Below are positions 11,330 through 54,900 of a DNA stretch of 54,900 nucleotides, piece by piece; the first letter of the stretch is position 1, and the number at the start of each line of letters is the position of its first letter. This DNA is from a virus (taxonomy: Duplodnaviria; Caudoviricetes): IMG/VR virus record IMGVR_UViG_3300028897_000401, positions 1-54,900 of that record. One strand, 5' to 3'. The notes below the pieces were generated by a model that saw only the letters and a list, made by a program, of their open reading frames with translations, did no database searches and had not been told where the DNA came from. The translations under genes were made by a program, and so were the position numbers.

Positions 11330-11575
11330 CGTGCGCACAAACACTTATCGAAGCTCACAGATCAAAAGGAGGTAGGCAACCATCTTATAGGACAATCTGT
11401 GGGCTTTAGTAATTGTTTGTGTAAAGGAGGTGAAATAATTGCTGGAGAAGTTGGAAAAGAAACTTCGTAGGTTGGAGAAAAAGTACGACAAAGCTAAGGG
11501 GCCGATTGAGCGGGCCAGGATAGCCAAGTCCGCCGAATCGGTAATTAGAAAGATGGACAAAATAAGGGGGAAAGT

Positions 11576-13132
11576 ATGAGCGAAATCAAGGGGGAGATCG
11601 GCAACTTGCTACGTGCGAGGGCTGGCGCCCTTTGGCTCCAGACAAACGAAGAGTTTAGAGCCAAACGTACCGTGGCGGAGGTTGCCGCAGAACTGAAATT
11701 CAACCTCAAGGTTTGGAGCGCCGCAAGGGGGCTTTATACCTACGGCACGAATGAGGTTGACGAGGACACGGTAGAAGTACCGCGATCCGTCTTTCATGGC
11801 ATGAAAGAGGACAAGGCGCGGACGATTTACCTTTTGCTGGATTTTGGTATCTGGCTAAACCTGGATCGTTCGGAAGACGCACCGGTACTTCAAAGAATGC
11901 TAAGAGAGGAACTGGAACGTATTTCCGAATTGCCGAGAGAGGTGGCGAAAGCGATTGTGATTATAGATCGCAGCGCAAGTCCCGACATTCCCGGTGTGGT
12001 TCCGGTTGATTTTCCTCTGCCAACAAAAACGGAGCTGTCTTCGATAGTTGATGACATGCTCCAAACATTGCCGGAGGCGATTGCCGACGATGTGACCAAA
12101 AACGGCAAGAAGGACGATATAGTCCAGGCACTTGCCGGTCTTGAGGCGGAATCGGCGTCTGTGGCAATAGCACGATCTATTGTTGCCGAGAAAACGATAG
12201 ACCCGAAATTGTTGGTACAGAGCAAGCGTCAGCTTATCGGGCGAGAGGGGGTTGTATCCTGGTTTGAGCCGGAACCGATGGGTCTGGACGGTTTGGGTGG
12301 TTTGGAGAATCTGGTGGAGTGGTTTCAAAGACTTACCAGGGCGTTGTCTCCGGCTGCTGAAAAGTACGGCAGACCTAAACCGAAAGGCGCGTTGTTTGTC
12401 GGCCCCGGTGGTACTGGCAAATCTTACAGTTGTCAGTGTGGGGCTACGGCGGCAAACATTCCAATGCTGGAAACGGGAAACTTGGAAGGTTCGTTGGTAG
12501 GTGAAACCGCAGACCGCGTTAAGAAAGCCTTCAGGCAGGCACGGGCGGTAACCCCTTGCATGCTGCGCATTGACGAAATCGAGAAAATGTTGGGCGGAGC
12601 GGGAACCGATCTAAGTGGTTCAACACAGAAGATGCTCGGTACTCTTTTGACGGAAATGCAGGAAGACAAAAGCGGGGTGTTTGTGGTTGCGACCTGTAAT
12701 GATCCCACTGCATTGAGCGGGCCACTGCTCAGGCGGTTTGACAAAATCTTCTGGCTCGACATTCCGCATCTGGACGAATGCGTCCAGATATTTGAAGTGA
12801 TGAAAAAGAAGTACAAGCCGTTGAAAAACATCGCTCCGGACAAACTGGCAAAACCGGCGTCGGAACGAAAACTGACCGGGGCTGAAATCGAAAAGGCGTG
12901 CATAGAGGCTATGGATATTGCCTTCAATGATGGCGAGAGGCCAGTTGAGGACGACGATATTCTCGCAACTATTCCTGAGATTCAGCCGGTAGCCGAGGCT
13001 GATGCCCACAATATTAAGGTATGGAGAGAGTGGGCTAAGAAGGTTGGAGCCAAAAATGCTAGCAAGGTGCGTAAAGTACGGTGGGCCGGAGACAAAGAGG
13101 CAAAAGGCCGTAGGCAAGTGGAAATTGATTAA
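11576..13132 (+). CDS. AAA+ ATPase (Ycf46-like two-domain type)
   Basis: Walker A GPGGTGKS, Walker B LRIDEIEK, VVATCND and LLRRFD; degenerate N-terminal ATPase-like domain. Confidence 0.9.
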   Translation: MSEIKGEIGNLLRARAGALWLQTNEEFRAKRTVAEVAAELKFNLKVWSAARGLYTYGTNEVDEDTVEVPRSVFHGMKEDKARTIYLLLDFGIWLNLDRSEDAPVLQRMLREELERISELPREVAKAIVIIDRSASPDIPGVVPVDFPLPTKTELSSIVDDMLQTLPEAIADDVTKNGKKDDIVQALAGLEAESASVAIARSIVAEKTIDPKLLVQSKRQLIGREGVVSWFEPEPMGLDGLGGLENLVEWFQRLTRALSPAAEKYGRPKPKGALFVGPGGTGKSYSCQCGATAANIPMLETGNLEGSLVGETADRVKKAFRQARAVTPCMLRIDEIEKMLGGAGTDLSGSTQKMLGTLLTEMQEDKSGVFVVATCNDPTALSGPLLRRFDKIFWLDIPHLDECVQIFEVMKKKYKPLKNIAPDKLAKPASERKLTGAEIEKACIEAMDIAFNDGERPVEDDDILATIPEIQPVAEADAHNIKVWREWAKKVGAKNASKVRKVRWAGDKEAKGRRQVEID

Positions 13133-13422
13133 AACGACTGTGCTCACAATCGCCTTTATTTTGAGTGCCGCAGAGACAGTTTATTGCCCGTGCTGGCAGA
13201 CGATGGCGAATTTCAACACGGGTAGCTGGTATCTTAAAATTAAGGTGATTGAGCACCGTCACGGAACAGAAACACGGGAGATTTGGTATTGGAAAGAAAG
13301 TTCCCACTTAGGAAGGTGAAAGGAATCCCATTTGTTAGGCGAGTATTTCTGTATGGGCAGATTGAAAGTTTAGCAATCTTAGTAGCTGGGCCTACAAAAG
13401 TGGTTCGGGTCCACGGTGGGAG

Positions 13423-13506
13423 TTTAAAGCTTTACCACTTAGCTCTGGCCAAAACGTACCAGACAACCAGGGGAAGGTAAGCCAGAGCTAGGGAGCAAGG
13501 CTTTAA
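13423..13506 (+). ncRNA. solo stem-closed TIGR-like guide RNA
   Basis: GGCC-aaaacgtacc-AGACAACC-aggggaaggta-AG, enclosed by stem TAGCTCTGG/CCAGAGCTA and outer stem TTAAAGCTTT/AAGGCTTTAA; intergenic. Confidence 0.65.
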
Positions 13507-13749
13507 CGAAAGGAGGTGTTAAATTGAAAGGATTTGAACGAGTAAATCTGGATTTGTTCGATAAGCCGAAACCCAAACTTGCCCTGCGTGTGATTACTCC
13601 CACCGAAATTGACGACTCGGACTTGGAAATCAAGATACCCGATTACTCCAAGGCAAGATCGACAAGGGAGCGACACCTTATGGCAATGGCTTTTGTGTAT
13701 CAGAACCGCGTGTTTTTAGACATACTAGAAGAGGAAAGGGGGATTAAGT

Positions 13750-14490
13750 ATGAGACAACTCAAACCTAGCTTTATCATCGTCGGCGACGTTGCTGTGCGC
13801 GGGGGCGTGCAGTACACGGTCAACAATCCCGACGAATGGGAAGAGGGCAGCGAGCACCACAAGAGGTGGGAAACGCATCGCACGATTTTCGATCCGGAAG
13901 AGTATAATTCGGGTCGTGCTACAAAGGCTCGCTTGCAGCGCCAACTCAATGAAGTATGCACACGGTCGGCAATCGGCCTTATCTGTCCTTACGAGTTTGA
14001 GGACAGATACCGAGAGATCGTAGAGTCAATCAAATCCGAGATTAAGGATTGGAATGATATAGCCAAGACCTGTAAGCTATCGTTCTATCCGGTCGAGTTT
14101 GAGATTGAGGGCGCAAACCAAAAGGTAGCCGAGGCGTTAATGCGGCAGTTGATTGAATTAATGGAAGACTTGCGGGAAGCTTTGAACAAGGGCGACTTCA
14201 AAGAGGTTCGCAACCTACTTCGCAACAAAAAAGGATTTTCGGAAATCCTGCCGGACGACCTGGGTCAGGATTTACGCGAAGCCCTGGAGTCGGCACGAGA
14301 ACAGGCAAAGGAACTCGCGAAGCAGGCCCGCGAGAATGCCGACCAATTTGAATTGGTACAACGGGCCGTGGATACGAGCAAGGTGTCTCTGGCGAGGCTG
14401 GCTTTTGTCGAGTATGCGGACGAAGTGACTGAGGTGATCGAAACGCCAAAGGTAAGCAATCGGCTGGCTGCGGTAGGAGCGGAGGTATAA
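13750..14490 (+). CDS. helical hypothetical protein (DUF3150-like)
   Basis: Long coiled-coil ORF following the AAA module; family call is tentative. Confidence 0.55.
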   Translation: MRQLKPSFIIVGDVAVRGGVQYTVNNPDEWEEGSEHHKRWETHRTIFDPEEYNSGRATKARLQRQLNEVCTRSAIGLICPYEFEDRYREIVESIKSEIKDWNDIAKTCKLSFYPVEFEIEGANQKVAEALMRQLIELMEDLREALNKGDFKEVRNLLRNKKGFSEILPDDLGQDLREALESAREQAKELAKQARENADQFELVQRAVDTSKVSLARLAFVEYADEVTEVIETPKVSNRLAAVGAEV

Positions 14491-14497
14491 TTTTTTG

Positions 14498-14573
14498 GGT
14501 GTCGGTAGCTCAGTGGTTAGAGCATGTGGCTGTGGCCCATAAGACAACGGTTCGACTCCGTTCCGACACCCCA
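14498..14573 (+). tRNA. tRNA-His (GTG)
   Basis: Cloverleaf: G-1, acceptor GTGTCGG/CCGACAC, D-arm GCTC/GAGC, anticodon loop CT-GTG-GC, T-loop TTCGACT, C73 discriminator, encoded CCA. Confidence 0.95.
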
Positions 14574-17328: not shown

Positions 17329-17595
17329 ATGAAACATACACCAGGACCGTGGAAAGCCCACCAAGACCCATACGCTAAAATATGGTTAGTAGATATGGGG
17401 AACGAAAAATGGCGACAGTTTTACAAACAACAAACAATATTTACAGAAGGCAATGCCAAACTAATCGCAGCAGCACCGGAATTGTTGGAAGTCATACAAG
17501 ATTTTTTGGCAGCGAAAAATAAAGATGAAATGCACCACGCAATGGTACGTATGGAAGAAGCAATCGCCAAGGCAACACAAGGGGGGGAGAAATGA
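17329..17595 (+). CDS. conserved phage hypothetical protein
   Basis: MKHTPGPW...NAKLIAAAPELLE motif common in phages. Confidence 0.75.
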   Translation: MKHTPGPWKAHQDPYAKIWLVDMGNEKWRQFYKQQTIFTEGNAKLIAAAPELLEVIQDFLAAKNKDEMHHAMVRMEEAIAKATQGGEK

Positions 17596-17883
17596 ACAAG
17601 TACCTTGAAATGATGTACGAGAGAGCAGAAAGTAAAATGCTGGTCGGTATTTGCCCCTTCTGCGATGCCGACTCTGAAATGGAAAGTTGGGTTGTCGCTA
17701 ATTTTCAGGCTTGCAAGCCAGTAAATTATCCTTGCGCATGGGCTACTTGTATATTTTGTCCGCACGCCGAGTATGCGAATCTGCCCTTTATGATGGACGG
17801 GGATGGCGAAGTAACTATGGATGATACCGAAGAGGGTTGCACTATGGCCGGTAGGCGTGCGTGGCGCAAATACCGAGACTTTT

Positions 17884-19311
17884 TCAATGAAGAATCGGAA
17901 ACACCGTAATTTCACCCGTTCGCACGTCAATTTCCACCCGGTCTATGAGAATGGAGAGAATCCTTTTCATGGTAACCCGGTCGAAATTGGCGTTGCGGAT
18001 AGAGGTTACCTTGTCGGCGACTACTTCATGGTTGTAAATTTCCGCTTCCGCCTTTCTCAACTGTACGCCGGTGGCGTCCAGGCGTTGCGACAATTCACGC
18101 TTGGACTCTTCAAGTTCAAGGACTTTTTTCTTAATAAGATGCCTGTCCTTGGAATTGAAGAGGTCGAGAAGATTGTCTTGCTTAACTGAGAGGTCGTCTA
18201 TTTTGGATTCTAGAATTTCGTATTGCTCTACGAGTCGGCTCTTTCTGTGTTGGACGTGCTTTGATATGGCGGTGGCATTTATGTCGTGCGACCGGAAAAA
18301 TTCCAGGACGGCCTCTTCTAGCGGCTCGCGTTTGATGGATTTCCGGATGCATGTATCACAGTGGTCGTGGGAGCGTGTATGGAATTGACAACGGTATCGC
18401 GCAGTATCCCGGTCTTTGCGGTACTGACCCGCCCAGGAACTTCCGCAGGGTTTGGCGACGACAAGTCCGGACAAGAGAAACCTGTCATCGTCGTAAACCC
18501 TGGTGGCTGCGGTACGACCTTTGATGACGGTTTGCGTGCGTTCCCACACCTGGCGGTCGATTATGCCGATGTGATCCGACGGGAGTACCTCACCGCCATG
18601 CCTTTGAAAGCTGCGGTTTTCCCTGGCAGGATCGGCGATGTAATGGACGGATTTCAACATGCGCAAAATTTGCTGGTGGTTCCAGAGTTTCCCGCCGGTA
18701 GTTTTGATGCCTTGAGCATTGAGCCAATCTGCTATCTTGCGAGCGCCTTGATAGTTGAGGGCTCGGTTGTATATCTCTTTGACAATTTCCGCGTCTTTGT
18801 TGGGCTTGAGCCGTTTGTGCTCACGGTCGAGTTCAAAACCGAAAGAAACCCAGCCGCCCGTCCAGCGCTGCTTTTTGGCGAGCTTGTTCATGGCATCAGT
18901 AACCCGGAGCGAAATAACGTCGGATTCGTATTCGGCAAAAGAAACGAGCATAGTGCGGAACAGGCGTCCCATGGCGGTTTGTGTATCGACATTCTCTGTT
19001 ACCGATACTATGCCGACGCCGTTCTTTTCAAACTCTTCACTCAGAGACAAAAAATCTCTGACACGACGGGAAAAACGATCGAGCCGGTAGACGCATACTT
19101 TGTCTATACTGTTTTCGGAAACTACCCTTCGCAGGGCGTTGAGGCCGGGGCGAGACAGCGACCGCCCCGTTTTGCCTATATCAACAAAGGTGTTGGTAAG
19201 CTCCCATCCCTGGGATTTGATGTAATTCTCGGTGGCGTCCCTTTGTACTTCAGGGCTTACAGAAATATCGCCGCGTTCCTCGGATTGTCGGACGTAAACT
19301 GCGGTTTTCAT
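17884..19311 (-). CDS. large serine recombinase (integrase)
   Basis: YVRQS catalytic Ser, RPGL, VYRLDRFSR, recombinase domain, Zn-ribbon region and coiled coil. Confidence 0.95.
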   Translation of the reverse strand: MKTAVYVRQSEERGDISVSPEVQRDATENYIKSQGWELTNTFVDIGKTGRSLSRPGLNALRRVVSENSIDKVCVYRLDRFSRRVRDFLSLSEEFEKNGVGIVSVTENVDTQTAMGRLFRTMLVSFAEYESDVISLRVTDAMNKLAKKQRWTGGWVSFGFELDREHKRLKPNKDAEIVKEIYNRALNYQGARKIADWLNAQGIKTTGGKLWNHQQILRMLKSVHYIADPARENRSFQRHGGEVLPSDHIGIIDRQVWERTQTVIKGRTAATRVYDDDRFLLSGLVVAKPCGSSWAGQYRKDRDTARYRCQFHTRSHDHCDTCIRKSIKREPLEEAVLEFFRSHDINATAISKHVQHRKSRLVEQYEILESKIDDLSVKQDNLLDLFNSKDRHLIKKKVLELEESKRELSQRLDATGVQLRKAEAEIYNHEVVADKVTSIRNANFDRVTMKRILSILIDRVEIDVRTGEITVFPILH

Positions 19312-28924: not shown

Positions 28925-29806
28925 ATGAATCATCCAAGTAGGGAAACCATCAAAATGTTGATGAACACTGCCTACGGTTTCCAGCAACTACGGATAATGA
29001 CCGGGAACCGTCTGGCGGCAAACTTCCGCATCAAGCTCGGCGTTGCGCCGGGCATGAAGAAATCCGAAATACCGGAAGCGGCCAAGAACATCTTGGATAC
29101 GTTGTTGGCGGATCAGTTCAGATTGGCAGACGCTCTGGCATCCGGCGGCAGAAAGCGTTTCAAGGCGCGGCTCAGCGACGACGGTATTATCAGCGACGAA
29201 TTTGAGTATGAAGCCATCGGTCATTACATGACCTTGCTGCAAGCAGAGCAAGACGCCTTTAAGGCGGTGGGGCGTGCGGTTCGGCAGCACCCTTTGTGGA
29301 CGGGTTTTTTCAAGGACGTGCGCGGCGTCGGAGAAACTATGGCGGCGGTGTGCATCAGCGAATTTGACGTTCACGTAGCCAAACACGTATCGGCATTTTG
29401 GAAGTATGCGGGCCTGGACGTGGCGGACGACGGCAGGGGGCGATCCAGAAGAAAAGAGCACCTTATCGAAGTGGAGTATATCGACAAAAACGGTGAGAAG
29501 AAAATCCGTAAGTCGATTACGTTCAATGCCTGGCTGAAATCGAAGCTTATGGGTGTGCTGGCAGATTGTCTGCTAGTCAAAGGGAAGTACCGGACGATTT
29601 ATGACAACTACAAGCACCGGCTTGAGCATCACGAAAAACACGAAGAGAAAACGAAGGCGCATCGCCATCTCATGGCAAAGCGATACATGGTCAAGCAATT
29701 CCTGCGTGACCTGTGGGTTGCATGGCGCGAGTTGGAAGGTCTGCGAATAGACGAGCCGTATCATGTTGCTAAGCTGGGGATGGCGGAGCATAGCGAGGCG
29801 GCATAA
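28925..29806 (+). CDS. tasA: TasA-like Nop-domain protein (IS110/IS116 C-terminal-like, no nuclease domain)
   Basis: Coiled-coil N-terminus (QQLRIMTGNR), VRGVGETMAA helix-hairpin, SAFWKYAGL, FNAWLK and HRHLMAKRYMVKQFLRDLW. No DEDD RuvC or HNH domain; TIGR-like array present in the same genome. Confidence 0.8.
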   Translation: MNHPSRETIKMLMNTAYGFQQLRIMTGNRLAANFRIKLGVAPGMKKSEIPEAAKNILDTLLADQFRLADALASGGRKRFKARLSDDGIISDEFEYEAIGHYMTLLQAEQDAFKAVGRAVRQHPLWTGFFKDVRGVGETMAAVCISEFDVHVAKHVSAFWKYAGLDVADDGRGRSRRKEHLIEVEYIDKNGEKKIRKSITFNAWLKSKLMGVLADCLLVKGKYRTIYDNYKHRLEHHEKHEEKTKAHRHLMAKRYMVKQFLRDLWVAWRELEGLRIDEPYHVAKLGMAEHSEAA

Positions 29807-52108: not shown

Positions 52109-54900
52109 AGATCGTTTGTTGTAAATGCAGCCACAAGTACGACGCCCGGTTTTATGAATGCGACAAGGTAAGTACGCCTATTGTCGAATGCCCTAATTGC
52201 GGGCTGAAACACGCGGTGGAATTTACTCCTTTCGCGAGCGAAACCGAAGACCTGAAAGAGGTCGAAGAGGTAAACCTGGGCGGCGGGCCGTACTATGCGG
52301 TTATGGGCGGCAGTCGCATTTTGAGTATCGACGGCACAACGGATCATTCGGGTTCCGATGGCGGCGATGTATCGGATTGGAGCCACGGCGATAATTTTAT
52401 TGTGGCGGTTTTAATTCATTCGGGCGGCAAAGAAACAGAGGCTTCAACGTACAAACTAAGGTGGCGCGATGCCTCTGACGAGGGAGCTTTTGCCGATCTT
52501 GCCGATACGGGTGAAATGAATTACACGGCCAGCCAAGCAAGCTGGAGCCACGGTGACGAAGTAACGTCCGCACAGAGAAAATGCACCACGGAGGGCGACA
52601 CTTGGCAGAATGGCGAAAGGGTTAAAGGACAGGTTTTAAGTGATTCGATCGATTTGCCGGATGATTACGAAACGGAAATTTGGTTCGGGATAAACCCGGC
52701 TACAGCCGACGATTTGCACGATTACGAATTTGAATTGTATTCAACGGCTCAGGGTGCTTCCTTGGGTACGTGCGGGCCAGACACGTTAACCCTGACCATG
52801 ATCGAAGCGGCCCCGGAAACGGGATACGCCTGGGGTGAAGAAAGTCCCGGTACTGGCTACAAAGCAGTATCCTGGCAGAACATGTATCCAAACCCCTCGG
52901 TAGTGGACGGCCCGGACTACGGCAAACTGGAAGTACCTGACCAATTCAGACATAGCCCGGTGAAATTGGTTGGTGGAGACAAAACGTACTCTGTCAATTT
53001 AAACAAATACGGCAGCGGATCGGGAAGTGTGGAAGCATGGGTGAGGGGGGCGGATGCAAGCTGGACGGACGTTGATACCTTGGAGGTTGCGTGCGGTAAG
53101 TATCACGCGCTCGCCATTAAAACCGACGGTACGTTGTGGGCGTGGGGTCGCAATTCTTACGGCCAACTCGGTCTGGGCGACACAACTTCCCGGTCTTCTC
53201 CGGTGCAAGTGGGATCGTTAACGAATTGGAGTCAAACATCGGACGGGTACGGTCACGCCTTAGCCATTAAAACCGATGGCACTCTGTGGGCATGGGGCCG
53301 CAACAATTACGGCCAACTCGGTTTAGGTGACACGACCGGACGGTCGTCGCCGGTACAGGTTGGATTGTTGGCGAATTGGAGTCTAATATCTAGCGGGTAC
53401 GACCACTCTCTCGCCGTAAAAACCGACGGCACGTTATGGGCCTGGGGTGCCAATACCTATGGCGAACTTGGCTTAGGCGACACAGCCCCTCGGTCTTCCC
53501 CGGTACAAGTCGGAGCACTGACAAATTGGAATCGAATTGGTGTTGGTTATTACCACTCCCTCGCCATTAAAGCCGATGGCACTCTGTGGGCATGGGGCCG
53601 GAATGACACAATGGGGCAACTCGGCCTTGGTGATACAACCAGCCGGTCATCGCCGGTACAAGTGGGAGCACTAACAAATTGGAATCGTGTTAGGTGTGGC
53701 GACTACCATACCCTCGCCATTAAAACCGACGGTACGCTTTGGGTGTGGGGCCGCAACGACAAAGGCCAACTCGGCCAGGGCGACATAACTCCCCGATCTT
53801 CTCCGGCACAGGTTGGAGCACTGACGAATTGGAGTCAGACTCCGAACACCACTGACCATACCATCGCCATTAAAACCGACGGTACGTTGTGGGCGTGGGG
53901 TTACAATGCAAGCGGCCAGCTTGGCTTGGGTGATACAACCAGCCGGTCATCGCCGGTACAAGTGGGATCGCTGGCGAATTGGAGTAAGGTTGAGTGCGGC
54001 GACTACTTCACCTTCGCCATCAAAACTGACGGCACTCTATGGGCGTGTGGCGAGAATATGTATGGCCAGCTCGGCAAGGGCGATATAATTTACCGTTCTT
54101 CTCCGGTACAGGTGTCCGGGATAAAGACGTGGGCGAATCTTCTCCGGTACTACGCTAATGTTGCGATTTGCAAAGGTGACGGCACGTTGTGGATATGGGG
54201 CCGCAACGACTACGGCCAACTCGGTCTGGGCGACATAACTCCCCGGTCTTCTCCGGTGCAAGTGGGATCGTTGGTAACGTGGCATAAAGCTGGCTCCGGC
54301 ATTTATCACTCTGTTGCTATAAAAATCGATCGTACATTGTGGGTGTGGGGTGCCAACGCATACGGCCAACTCGGTTTAGGTGACATAACTCCCCGATCTT
54401 TTCCGGCACAAGTGGGAGCAATGACGAATTGGAGTCAAGTCGCCTGCGGCGGTACTCACACCGTTGCCGTAAAAACCGATGGTACTCTATGGGCCTGGGG
54501 TGCCAATACCTATGGCCAGCTCGGTTTAGGTGACATAACTCACCGATCTTCGCCAGCACAAGTGGGAGCACTGACAAATTGGAGTCAAGTCGCCTGCGGC
54601 GGTACTCACACCGTTGCCGTAAAAACCGATGGGACACTGTGGGCGTGGGGCCGTAACAACTACGGCCAACTCGGCCAGGGGGATATAACCGATCGGTCTT
54701 CGCCAGCACAAGTGGGAGCACTGACAAATTGGAGTCAAGTCGGTTGCGGCGCTGGTCACACCCTCGCCATTAAAACCGACGGTACATTGTGGGTGTGCGG
54801 TAGTAACGACTTTGGTGAACTCGGTCAAGGCAACAGCGGCGCTGGGACCCACCGTTCGTCGCCGGTACAGGTTGGATCACTGACGAATTGGAGTCAAACA
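52105..54900 (+). CDS. RCC1-repeat protein, 3' truncated (missing from ORF track because no stop in window)
   Basis: Open frame from ATG 52105. At least 12 repeats of ~50 aa, H.LAIKTDGTLWAWG.N.YGQLGLGD...RSSPVQVG, from ~53100. Confidence 0.9.
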   Translation, partial: MKIVCCKCSHKYDARFYECDKVSTPIVECPNCGLKHAVEFTPFASETEDLKEVEEVNLGGGPYYAVMGGSRILSIDGTTDHSGSDGGDVSDWSHGDNFIVAVLIHSGGKETEASTYKLRWRDASDEGAFADLADTGEMNYTASQASWSHGDEVTSAQRKCTTEGDTWQNGERVKGQVLSDSIDLPDDYETEIWFGINPATADDLHDYEFELYSTAQGASLGTCGPDTLTLTMIEAAPETGYAWGEESPGTGYKAVSWQNMYPNPSVVDGPDYGKLEVPDQFRHSPVKLVGGDKTYSVNLNKYGSGSGSVEAWVRGADASWTDVDTLEVACGKYHALAIKTDGTLWAWGRNSYGQLGLGDTTSRSSPVQVGSLTNWSQTSDGYGHALAIKTDGTLWAWGRNNYGQLGLGDTTGRSSPVQVGLLANWSLISSGYDHSLAVKTDGTLWAWGANTYGELGLGDTAPRSSPVQVGALTNWNRIGVGYYHSLAIKADGTLWAWGRNDTMGQLGLGDTTSRSSPVQVGALTNWNRVRCGDYHTLAIKTDGTLWVWGRNDKGQLGQGDITPRSSPAQVGALTNWSQTPNTTDHTIAIKTDGTLWAWGYNASGQLGLGDTTSRSSPVQVGSLANWSKVECGDYFTFAIKTDGTLWACGENMYGQLGKGDIIYRSSPVQVSGIKTWANLLRYYANVAICKGDGTLWIWGRNDYGQLGLGDITPRSSPVQVGSLVTWHKAGSGIYHSVAIKIDRTLWVWGANAYGQLGLGDITPRSFPAQVGAMTNWSQVACGGTHTVAVKTDGTLWAWGANTYGQLGLGDITHRSSPAQVGALTNWSQVACGGTHTVAVKTDGTLWAWGRNNYGQLGQGDITDRSSPAQVGALTNWSQVGCGAGHTLAIKTDGTLWVCGSNDFGELGQGNSGAGTHRSSPVQVGSLTNWSQT

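What the first reader, a model, noticed from the sequence alone, without database searches (positions are those of the whole stretch)
13423..13506. Solo guide unit closed by a long stem (box C/D snoRNA-like) 22 kb from the array
An intergenic sequence has the array grammar (GGCC-N10-AGACAACC-N11-AG). The edge repeat is replaced by a perfect 9-bp stem (13440-13448 with 13482-13490) and an outer 10-bp stem. One genome would then carry both dual-repeat guides and a stem-closed single guide, resembling a bridge between tigRNAs and C/D-box sRNAs. It lies in the early operon just after the AAA ATPase region.
Basis: partly seen in the sequence, partly recalled or inferred. Interest (0 to 1): 0.8.

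Follow-up and report, generated by a model that had tools for sequence, protein, structure and literature searches.

The report
Stem-closed TIGR guide units in phage
A marine phage with a TIGR guide-RNA array and a TasA protein also carries, 22 kb from the array, a hairpin whose loop matches one array guide unit, and it is one of three such hairpins, so guides of two architectures may serve one protein.

Summary
At 13424-13506 a two-tier stem (12 bp inner, 10 bp outer) encloses CC-N10-AGACAACC-N11-AG. This matches the unit grammar of the dual-repeat TIGR array at about 35494-36480: exact loop-repeat consensus, 10-nt spacer A, and an 11-nt spacer B as in 6 array units.

A grammar score of 22.5 bits was reached by 0 of 300 simulated genomes. 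The closing-stem energy of -31 kcal/mol was matched by 0 of 2932 background positions.

The unit is not solo. Two more stem-closed units lie at 11335-11422 and 11599-11687, before and inside the AAA ATPase gene. A linear single unit with a terminator lies at 38490-38548.

The only Tas gene (28925-29806) is TasA-type and keeps the Y...KLG...H processing motif typical of dual-repeat systems.

Stem-loop tigRNAs are already described, so this is a new variant, not a new class. The variant is two guide architectures with one dual-repeat-type TasA, with the stem-closed units dispersed in early genes 15-17 kb from tas.

No classical box C/D or K-turn is present.

Expression, TasA binding and targets are untested. 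No close relatives of the phage exist to test covariation. Related tas loci show no enrichment of such hairpins.

The parts
13424..13433 (+). U2 outer stem, 5' strand (UUAAAGCUUU)
   Evidence: Pairs with 13497-13506: 9 Watson-Crick pairs and 1 G.U.
13438..13449 (+). U2 inner stem, 5' strand (CUUAGCUCUGGC). It begins with CUU and ends in the first C of box C.
   Evidence: 12-bp helix in the MFE and centroid structures. The perfect 9 bp 13440-13448 / 13482-13490 was read directly.
13449..13450 (+). Box C-like CC. Together with G13448 it gives GCC, the last 3 nt of the edge repeat.
   Evidence: Array edge consensus is AGCGTGCC.
13451..13460 (+). Spacer A, 10 nt (AAAACGTACC)
   Evidence: Same length as 25 of 26 array spacer A copies.
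13461..13468 (+). Loop repeat AGACAACC, identical to the array loop consensus
   Evidence: 13.39 bits, the maximum of the loop weight matrix.
13469..13479 (+). Spacer B, 11 nt (AGGGGAAGGTA)
   Evidence: An 11-nt spacer B occurs in 6 array units.
13480..13492 (+). Box D-like AG (with C13482 giving AGC, the first 3 nt of the edge repeat), followed by the inner stem 3' strand
13497..13506 (+). U2 outer stem, 3' strand
13509..13769 (+). Ribosome-binding site AAAGGAGGTG and TTG-start ORF (81 aa, no family) directly after U2
   Evidence: The same RBS-plus-TTG arrangement follows U0.
11335..11422 (+). U0: a stem-closed unit with central AGGCAACC. The loop reads UC+10+8+11+CA. The edge boxes are degenerate.
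   Evidence: Fold z -5.77. Closing energy -30.8, the best of the whole-window scan. Octamer score 11.35 bits.
11599..11687 (+). U1: a stem-closed unit inside the 5' end of the AAA ATPase ORF, reading GCC+10+AGACAAAC+11+AGC. In the unconstrained MFE its guide part is paired.
   Evidence: Weight-matrix score 18.29 bits (genome-wide p about 0.04). Closing energy -28.6 to -30.2. TIGR-like fold -28.6 against MFE -45.2.
11576..13132 (+). AAA+ ATPase (Cdc48/VCP/FtsH-like) flanked by the three units
   Evidence: Pfam AAA 2.7e-22. PDB Cdc48 2e-35.
28925..29806 (+). tasA: the only Tas/Nop-like gene in the window (293 aa). It has no nuclease domain. Its C-terminus reads PYHVAKLGMAEH.
   Evidence: PDB 9mty_A 1.9e-11 and TasH 3e-6. 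PF02371 at 24.8 bits, above its cut-off. Y..KLG..H compared with SpTasH PLYVQEKLGH. Single copy.
35494..36480 (+). Main dual-repeat TIGR array, about 27 units, period 36-37 nt
38490..38548 (+). Linear one-unit mini-array: (TA)GCC-GGTAGCACCA-AGACAACC-TTTTAGAAAA-AGCG, then an intrinsic terminator hairpin and a U-run
   Evidence: 24.27 bits, the maximum score. Terminator stem-loop seen. No closing stem (-4.1 kcal/mol).

Best explanation
The hairpin at 13424-13506 (U2) is a stem-closed tigRNA-type guide unit belonging to this phage's TIGR-TasA system.

The guide core (box C, 10-nt spacer A, loop repeat AGACAACC, 11-nt spacer B, box D) is the same as an array unit. The two half-edges (GCC and AGC), which in a mature array-derived tigRNA form a 2-bp helix, are here prolonged into a 12-bp helix plus a 10-bp outer helix.

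U2 is one of three such units (U0, U1, U2) placed before, inside and after the AAA ATPase gene on the coding strand.

Inferred mechanism. The units are transcribed as part of the + strand mRNA. They are cut out either by the TasA Y/H loop, at the positions equivalent to the edge-repeat cleavage site, or by a host double-strand RNase acting on the long stem. They are then loaded into the TasA dimer. Because TasA has no nuclease domain, the complex would bind and repress a DNA target matched by both spacers.

Shown here: the grammar, the stems, the statistics, the presence of tasA and its type. Inferred: transcription, processing, TasA loading and the target.
For: 1. Grammar identical to the array: 22.47 bits, with 0 of 300 simulated genomes reaching 22. 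The spacer asymmetry (A 10 nt, B 11 nt) matches the array's own variation.

2. The stem flanks box C and box D exactly. It keeps GCC and AGC of the edge repeat, so it prolongs the same G-C and C-G pairs that literature describes for the edge helix (Faure 2025 section 8, read via passages; Guan 2026 section 5 passages: the ends form a short paired element in dual-repeat guides and a single extended stem in the stem-loop guide).

3. Closing energy is -31.0 kcal/mol, with 0 of 2932 background positions as low.

4. Of 120 loop-like octamers outside the array on the + strand, three have closing energy of -30 or lower. The next best is -20.4. The minus-strand control best is -17.6 (of 128) and the reversed-motif control best is -19.5 (of 105).

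5. Of the 10 strongest closing stems found in a scan of 27404 window positions, 3 carry a centred loop-like octamer, with a per-site chance of 0.0001 to 0.0014.

6. With the guide part kept open, U2 loses only 3.3 kcal/mol relative to its MFE.

7. CUU lies at the base of the inner stem (13438-13440). A CUU at the stem base marks processing of stem-loop tigRNAs (Xu 2026 section 11, read).

8. tasA is present, single-copy and on the same strand.

9. TasA proteins act as RNA-guided repressors (Xu 2026 sections 12-13; discussion read).
Against: - There is no evidence of expression or TasA binding.
- The hairpin is invariant in the two runs that cover it with listed contigs (X1, X2). Listed contigs of X3 and X4 do not span it. 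There is therefore no covariation signal.
- No related phage shares this region.
- The window's TasA keeps the C-terminal Y/H loop. [quoted passage not shown]
- Among 80 loci with TasA homologues (973 kb), stem-closed loop-like octamers are not enriched: 33 of 2465 at -20 kcal/mol or lower, against 34 of 1927, 22 of 1299 and 25 of 1522 in the controls.
- Three other complete phage genomes with this type of system, counting phiRSL1, have no clear off-array unit: G001 by the grammar score and the stem scan, G004 by the stem scan only, phiRSL1 by pattern. G001 has only one doubtful hairpin.
- No target was found in the window: the best is 5-6 mismatches of 21, the same as random guides.
- U0 has degenerate edge boxes. 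In its MFE, U1 has its guide part paired, 16.6 kcal/mol below the TIGR-like fold.
Confidence: 0.58

Rival explanations
1. The hairpins are cis-acting TasA-binding or processing sites in the early mRNA rather than DNA-targeting guides. They mimic a guide unit so that TasA, or its Y/H RNase activity, binds or cuts the polycistronic transcript around the AAA ATPase gene. This would tune expression of the ATPase and of the TTG-start ORFs that follow U0 and U2.
For: - All three units bracket or sit in one gene, on its coding strand.
- U0 and U2 have the same build and both end 3-17 nt before an AAAGGAGGTG ribosome-binding site and a TTG start.
- U0's edge boxes are degenerate. Its spacer A (AAAAGGAGGT) itself looks like a ribosome-binding site.
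- No DNA target was found for any unit.
- Dual-repeat Tas proteins cut RNA themselves (PMC13421893 section 15, passages).
Against: - The spacers of the three units differ from each other, as guides do. A pure protein-binding site would not need 10/11-nt variable arms of exact length.
- No such regulatory use of Tas is described in the passages read from Faure 2025 (PMC12045711), the sections read from Xu 2026 (bioRxiv 10.64898/2026.09.09.750476), or the passages read from Guan 2026 (bioRxiv 10.64898/2026.08.11.744272) and PMC13421893.
Confidence: 0.2
2. The hairpins are TIGR-derived but no longer part of the system. They would be array units that were copied into the early region and are now kept, if at all, as ordinary mRNA structures: an RNase III-type processing site or a stabilising hairpin between cistrons.
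For: - Long imperfect intercistronic hairpins are common processing sites in phage early mRNAs (general knowledge, recalled).
- U0 and U1 depart from the consensus.
- A 12-of-13 nt match (GCCAAA(A)CGTACC) joins the 3' flank of U1 to box C plus spacer A of U2, hinting at copying events.
Against: - U2 keeps every one of the 14 informative grammar positions and the exact arm lengths. A relic under no TIGR-related selection would lose these.
- The stems start exactly at the box nucleotides in U2.
Confidence: 0.17
3. A chance resemblance: an unrelated hairpin or terminator whose loop happens to contain the motif.
For: AGACAACC alone occurs 6 times outside the array on both strands. Short motifs recur by chance.
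Against: - 0 of 300 simulated genomes reach the grammar score.
- 0 of 2932 positions reach the stem energy.
- Three co-located cases were found.
- No U-run follows the stem, and the terminator scan reports nothing at this site.
- No Rfam match was found.
Confidence: 0.02

Closest known systems
Stem-loop tigRNAs of TIGR-Tas systems (Faure et al. 2025, PMC12045711 section 9; Xu et al. 2026, bioRxiv 10.64898/2026.09.09.750476; PlTasA structure, Guan et al. 2026, bioRxiv 10.64898/2026.08.11.744272)
   Same: - Two spacers of 8-12 nt flanked by box C/D-like nucleotides.
- A palindromic stem takes the place of the edge repeats.
- Stems vary between units while the loop between the spacers is about 8-9 nt and conserved.
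- CUU lies at the stem base.
- Units can lie inside coding sequence.
   Different: - Here the only Tas is of the dual-repeat kind, with its Y..KLG..H loop kept.
- The units are not in tandem next to or inside tas. They are dispersed 15-17 kb away, around another gene.
- The loop is the same repeat as that of a co-resident dual-repeat array.
Dual-repeat TIGR array units (36-nt tigRNAs) of the same window and of phages such as Ralstonia phage phiRSL1 and Salicola phage CGphi29
   Same: Identical loop repeat, box nucleotides, spacer lengths and strand. The same TasA is presumably the partner.
   Different: There are no full edge repeats; only 3 nt are kept on each side. The unit is not in an array. 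A 22-bp two-tier stem replaces the 2-bp edge helix.
Archaeal and eukaryotic box C/D s(no)RNAs
   Same: The overall plan: two guide segments held by a terminal stem and an internal element, bound by a Nop-domain protein dimer.
   Different: - No RUGAUGA or CUGA boxes.
- No K-turn and no L7Ae or fibrillarin partner in the window.
- The expected target is DNA, not RNA.
RNase III processing hairpins between cistrons of phage early mRNAs (for example T7; recalled, not tested)
   Same: A long imperfect hairpin of about 80 nt in an intercistronic position, just upstream of a ribosome-binding site.
   Different: A 33-nt open loop carrying the TIGR unit grammar. No such motif is known in RNase III sites.

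Membership tests
Stem-loop tigRNA (TIGR-Tas) | Two 8-12 nt spacers, each flanked by box C-like and box D-like nucleotides, with an internal loop element between them | tested here: met
   CC-10-AG/ACAA/CC-11-AG, read directly. Scores 22.47 bits against the array-derived matrix.
Stem-loop tigRNA (TIGR-Tas) | A palindromic sequence in place of the edge repeats, closing the unit with a stem | tested here: met
   12-bp plus 10-bp helices. Closing energy -31.0, with 0 of 2932 background positions as low.
Stem-loop tigRNA (TIGR-Tas) | Units in tandem arrays next to or within the tas gene | tested here: not met
   The three units lie at 11.35, 11.63 and 13.45 kb. tasA is at 28.9 kb.
Stem-loop tigRNA (TIGR-Tas) | A partner Tas of the stem-loop clades that lacks the C-terminal Y/H processing loop | tested here: not met
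   The window TasA ends ...PYHVAKLGMAEHSEAA. This aligns to SpTasH PLYVQEKLGH (Y289/H296), and the Y and KLG are invariant in 3 homologues. Only one Tas is present.
Stem-loop tigRNA (TIGR-Tas) | CUU motif at the stem base | tested here: inconclusive
   CUU is present at 13438-13440 and 13431-13433, and also in the 5' stem strands of U0 and U1. A 3-mer is weak evidence.
Stem-loop tigRNA (TIGR-Tas) | Expressed, processed to a discrete small RNA and bound by Tas | not testable with these tools
   Needs small-RNA sequencing or a pull-down.
Dual-repeat tigRNA unit | Loop repeat and spacer lengths of the locus's own array | tested here: met
   AGACAACC matches exactly. Spacer lengths are 10 and 11 nt.
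Dual-repeat tigRNA unit | Full edge repeats on both sides (needed for processing of minimal arrays; Faure 2025 section 5) | tested here: not met
   The 5' side CTCTGGCC and the 3' side AGCCAGAG each share 4 of 8 positions with AGCGTGCC.
Box C/D s(no)RNA | Box C RUGAUGA and box D CUGA forming a K-turn, plus internal C'/D' boxes | tested here: not met
   No TGATGA or CTGA occurs in 13415-13515. No Rfam family matched at E up to 10 in 13100-13560.
Intrinsic terminator | A GC-rich stem with a short loop, followed by a U-run | tested here: not met
   The loop is 31-33 nt. The stem is followed by CGAAAGGAGG. The scan reports no terminator here.
TasA (nuclease-less Tas) for ORF 28925-29806 | A Nop-like C-terminal domain homologous to solved Tas proteins, with no HNH or RuvC domain | tested here: met
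   TasH chains at E 3e-6 and 9mty_A at 1.9e-11, over residues 104-285. The protein starts at the coiled-coil segment, aligned to 9mty residues 123-137. Pfam finds only PF02371.

The most novel reading that the evidence does not exclude
One dual-repeat-type TasA, with its Y/H RNA-cutting loop, is served by two guide architectures in the same phage. One is a 27-unit dual-repeat array. The other is a set of stem-closed guides embedded in and around an early gene far from tas.

[quoted passage not shown] They would also couple guide production, or TasA-dependent mRNA cleavage, to early gene expression.

This would imply that searches limited to the neighbourhood of tas miss part of the guide repertoire.
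Probability: 0.4. Interest if true: 0.78.

Novelty: new variant of a known kind. Interest (0 to 1): 0.62.

Why it matters
TIGR-Tas systems were described only in 2025. The papers read here treat dual-repeat and stem-loop guides as separate architectures tied to separate Tas clades, with different maturation routes.

A phage in which the array's own loop repeat and box nucleotides reappear inside long-stem hairpins would give a concrete, testable case on three points:
- how one architecture can turn into the other;
- whether a Y/H-loop Tas tolerates or trims an extended stem;
- whether guides can be hidden in mRNAs away from the locus.

It also shows that guide annotation restricted to tas flanks can be incomplete.

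If instead the hairpins are TasA-responsive mRNA elements, that would be a new regulatory use of a Tas protein.

Tried and rejected
Comparative test. Relatives of this genome region were sought and none share it:
- blastn of 11.5-15.5 kb against phages: no match.
- The search for related loci with ORF 13750-14490 in viral contigs and in metagenome contigs: none.
- The search for related loci with the ATPase in viral contigs: 4 distant loci only.
- The complete phage G004 (TasA 52% identical) has no ATPase homologue.

Covariation could therefore not be tested.

Public runs. Four DNA metagenome runs hold the 9-18 kb stretch nearly unchanged. No RNA holder is listed. Contigs of X1 and X2 cover the hairpin without differences. 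Listed contigs of X3 and X4 do not span it.

Self-targets in the window. For U2 the best match has 5-6 mismatches of 21. For the 38.49 kb unit, U1 and U0 the best has 5. Sixty random guide pairs gave best hits of 3-6 mismatches, mostly 5. This was rejected as noise.

Exact target searches for U2, in both strand arrangements with small gaps. Viral contigs gave 0 and 0. Genome contigs gave 0 and 2. The two hits (Cellvibrionaceae and Trueperaceae MAGs) are about what chance predicts (my estimate is roughly 3). The one inspected lies inside a long ORF and mismatches the 11th spacer base. They are uninformative.

Generality:
- 80 TasA loci: no enrichment of stem-closed units.
- G004: none.
- phiRSL1: no off-array unit by pattern.
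- The pattern GGCC-N10-AGACAACC-N10/11-AGCC in viral contigs gave 25 hits. Only one has even a moderate closing stem (L133, -23.6).

Other candidate Tas proteins. ORFs next to the array (34250-34684 and 34832-35263) and ORF 13750-14490 gave no Tas-like hits. Pfam Nop PF01798 finds nothing in six frames.

The hairpin at 17906-18010 looked like a fourth unit by closing energy. It is a fully paired long hairpin and is not TIGR-like.

Supplementary files of the papers were not consulted because they are closed. Faure's table S1 and figures S4 and S13, Xu's supplementary table, and the not-yet-public TIGRSafari may already list this locus or mixed architectures. My statement that the mixed arrangement is not in print rests on two listings and on the sections and passages read.

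Full report
**What the window is.** It is an IMG/VR virus record of 54.9 kb, estimated 58% complete. Nearly all genes lie on the + strand. It occurs almost unchanged in four marine sediment or seawater DNA runs.

At about 35494-36480 it carries a dual-repeat TIGR array. One search parsed 27 loop copies (consensus AGACAACC) and 26 consensus-like edge copies (consensus AGCGTGCC) plus one degenerate terminal edge. The period is 36-37 nt. Spacer A is 10 nt in 25 of 26 units. Spacer B is 10 nt in 20 units, 11 nt in 6 and 9 nt in 1.

Both repeats start with AG and end with CC. This corresponds to the box D and box C positions defined for TasR (UG and CCA) in Faure et al. 2025 (passages). AG-ACAA-CC fits their A-rich tetraloop-like loop repeat. 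AGC-GT-GCC fits their edge repeat with one extra G-C pair.

**The Tas gene.** The ORFs next to the array are not Tas, and Pfam Nop is not detected. Searching viral contigs for edge-N10-loop found three contigs with the same repeats (L014, L015, L026). Their array-adjacent protein is homologous to window ORF 28925-29806.

That ORF (293 aa) matches solved TasH chains (E 3e-6) and PDB 9mty_A (E 1.9e-11) over residues 104-285. It also passes Pfam PF02371.

The protein begins at the coiled-coil segment and has no HNH or RuvC domain, so it is TasA-type. Its C-terminus (PYHVAKLGMAEH) aligns with the SpTasH segment PLYVQEKLGH, which holds the RNA-processing residues Y289 and H296 (PMC13421893 section 15). 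It therefore looks like a dual-repeat-type, self-processing Tas. A profile of three TasA sequences finds no second copy in the window.

**The finding itself.** The sequence is as described. A perfect 9-bp stem, 13440-13448 with 13482-13490, is extended by folding to 12 bp. An outer 10-bp stem pairs 13424-13433 with 13497-13506. Enclosed is CC-AAAACGTACC-AGACAACC-AGGGGAAGGTA-AG.

The three nucleotides next to each spacer (GCC and AGC) are those of the edge repeat. The stem therefore prolongs the two base pairs that the 5' and 3' ends of a mature dual-repeat tigRNA form.

A weight matrix from the array (GCC-N10-loop-N10/11-AGC) scores the site at 22.47 bits. Of 300 simulated genomes, none reached 22 bits. 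Its closing-stem energy, -31.0 kcal/mol, is lower than at all 2932 random positions.

No U-run follows the stem. No Rfam family matches. There is no canonical C/D box or K-turn sequence.

**It is not solo.** The same matrix gives the maximum score, 24.27 bits, at 38490. There GCC-GGTAGCACCA-AGACAACC-TTTTAGAAAA-AGCG sits directly after a stop codon and is followed by an intrinsic terminator. This is a one-unit linear mini-array with truncated edges, the arrangement Faure et al. describe for array ends.

The matrix also gives 18.29 bits at 11627, inside the 5' end of the AAA ATPase ORF (genome-wide p about 0.04).

An unbiased scan of closing-stem energy over 27404 window positions put 11363, 11627 and 13451 among the four strongest sites. 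Each carries a loop-like octamer at the centre: AGGCAACC, AGACAAAC and AGACAACC. The per-site chance is 0.0004, 0.0014 and 0.0001.

Among 120 loop-like octamers outside the array on the + strand, these three have closing energies of -30.8, -30.2 and -31.0. The next is -20.4. The minus-strand control reaches -17.6 and the reversed-motif control -19.5.

**U0, U1 and U2 compared.**
- U0 (11335-11422; fold z -5.77) and U2 share a design. Both have a two-tier stem and a 32-33-nt loop laid out as 2+10+8+11+2. Both are followed by an AAAGGAGGTG ribosome-binding site and a TTG-start ORF.
- Their stems and spacers differ in sequence (and direct reading), as expected of a scaffold with variable guides.
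- U0 has degenerate edge boxes. UC is a variant seen in 4 of 26 array edges. Its 3' box is not seen in the array.
- In the MFE fold, U1's guide part is paired, 16.6 kcal/mol below the TIGR-like fold.
- U2 is therefore the best-formed of the three.

**Against a general phenomenon.**
- The complete phage G001 shares only the TasA-array module with the window. All of its units are in the array. It has one doubtful hairpin with the 2+10+8+11+2 layout but no box nucleotides.
- The complete phage G004 has no stem-closed unit.
- phiRSL1 has no off-array unit by pattern.
- Across 80 TasA loci (973 kb), stem-closed loop-like octamers are no commoner than in the controls.

**Targets.** None of the units has a match in the window better than random guides do. 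Exact searches for the U2 spacer pair gave nothing in viral contigs. In genome contigs they gave two hits, about what chance predicts.

**Relation to the literature.** Stem-loop tigRNAs have two spacers with C/D-like boxes, closed by variable palindromes, sometimes with conserved loop elements, sometimes inside coding sequence, and processed at a CUU at the stem base. They are already known (Faure 2025 section 9; Xu 2026 sections 5, 7 and 11; Guan 2026).

In those papers the two architectures belong to different Tas clades, and all stem-loop binders lack the Y/H loop (Xu sections 6 and 10). I did not find three things described in the text I could read: a Y/H-bearing TasA, a dual-repeat array, and stem-closed units with the array's own loop repeat, together in one phage and far from tas. 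Supplements and TIGRSafari could not be checked.

**Verdict.** The best reading (0.58) is a stem-closed tigRNA-type guide, one of three, belonging to the phage's TasA system.

The rivals are a TasA-responsive mRNA element (0.20), a TIGR-derived hairpin now serving only as ordinary mRNA structure (0.17) and chance (0.02).

The link to box C/D sRNAs is not supported beyond the general analogy already published. This is a new variant of a known kind, of moderate to high interest to the TIGR field, and it needs RNA and binding experiments.

Noticed in passing
window 38490-38548: A one-unit linear TIGR mini-array lies 2 kb downstream of the main array. It has a perfect grammar score, its 5' truncated edge overlaps the stop codon of ORF 37873-38490, and an intrinsic terminator follows. 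The main array also starts with TAGCC overlapping a stop codon (35497-35501).
   Followed up: partly
window 11658-11671 vs 13447-13460: The 3' flank of U1 (AGCCAAACGTACC) nearly repeats box C plus spacer A of U2 (GGCCAAAACGTACC), matching at 12 of 13 nt. It does not form a TIGR target arrangement. It may record a copying event between the units.
   Followed up: partly
window 17906-18010: A very stable, fully paired long hairpin (MFE -51.9 kcal/mol, z -5.06) spans the 3' part of minus-strand ORF 17421-17930 and the gap before plus-strand ORF 18071-18388. It is not TIGR-like, and its function is unknown.
   Followed up: partly
window 38318-38339: Inside ORF 37873-38490 there is an exact edge repeat, AGCGTGCC. 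It is preceded by TTAGAAAA, as in spacer B of the 38.49 kb unit, and followed by TCAATA, as in spacer A of array unit 36221. Repeats of 12-14 nt of this kind are expected by chance at this genome size, so the significance is unclear.
   Followed up: no
window 14499-14573: A tRNA-His (GTG) gene lies 1 kb downstream of U2 in the same gene block.
   Followed up: no
window 53110-54793: A 150-nt period tandem repeat of about 11 copies at 69% matches lies at the right end of the window. It looks like a repeat-domain coding region.
   Followed up: no
G001 (L032 14885-15010; genome 34885-35010): An unrelated complete phage with a homologous TasA-array module has a hairpin (z -3.75) with a 33-nt loop laid out as 2+10+AGGCAAAC+11+2. 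Its stem ends in UGCC/GGCA, but it has no box C/D nucleotides. It may be a degenerate stem-closed unit or chance (rough p 0.03-0.1).
   Followed up: partly
L034 (Ralstonia phage phiRSL1, NC_010811 13180-15642): ORF034, annotated 'transposase', is a TasA homologue (35% identity). It is followed by a 1.4-kb gene-free stretch that is a dual-repeat TIGR array (AGTGAGCC / AGTCACCC type).
   Followed up: partly
window 36849-37256 and 37323-37736: Two paralogous small secreted-looking proteins (signal peptide, shared WEQAIS..FYGWK..NAWDKSGNFS motifs) lie just downstream of the array. One hits a tail-fibre PHROG weakly.
   Followed up: no
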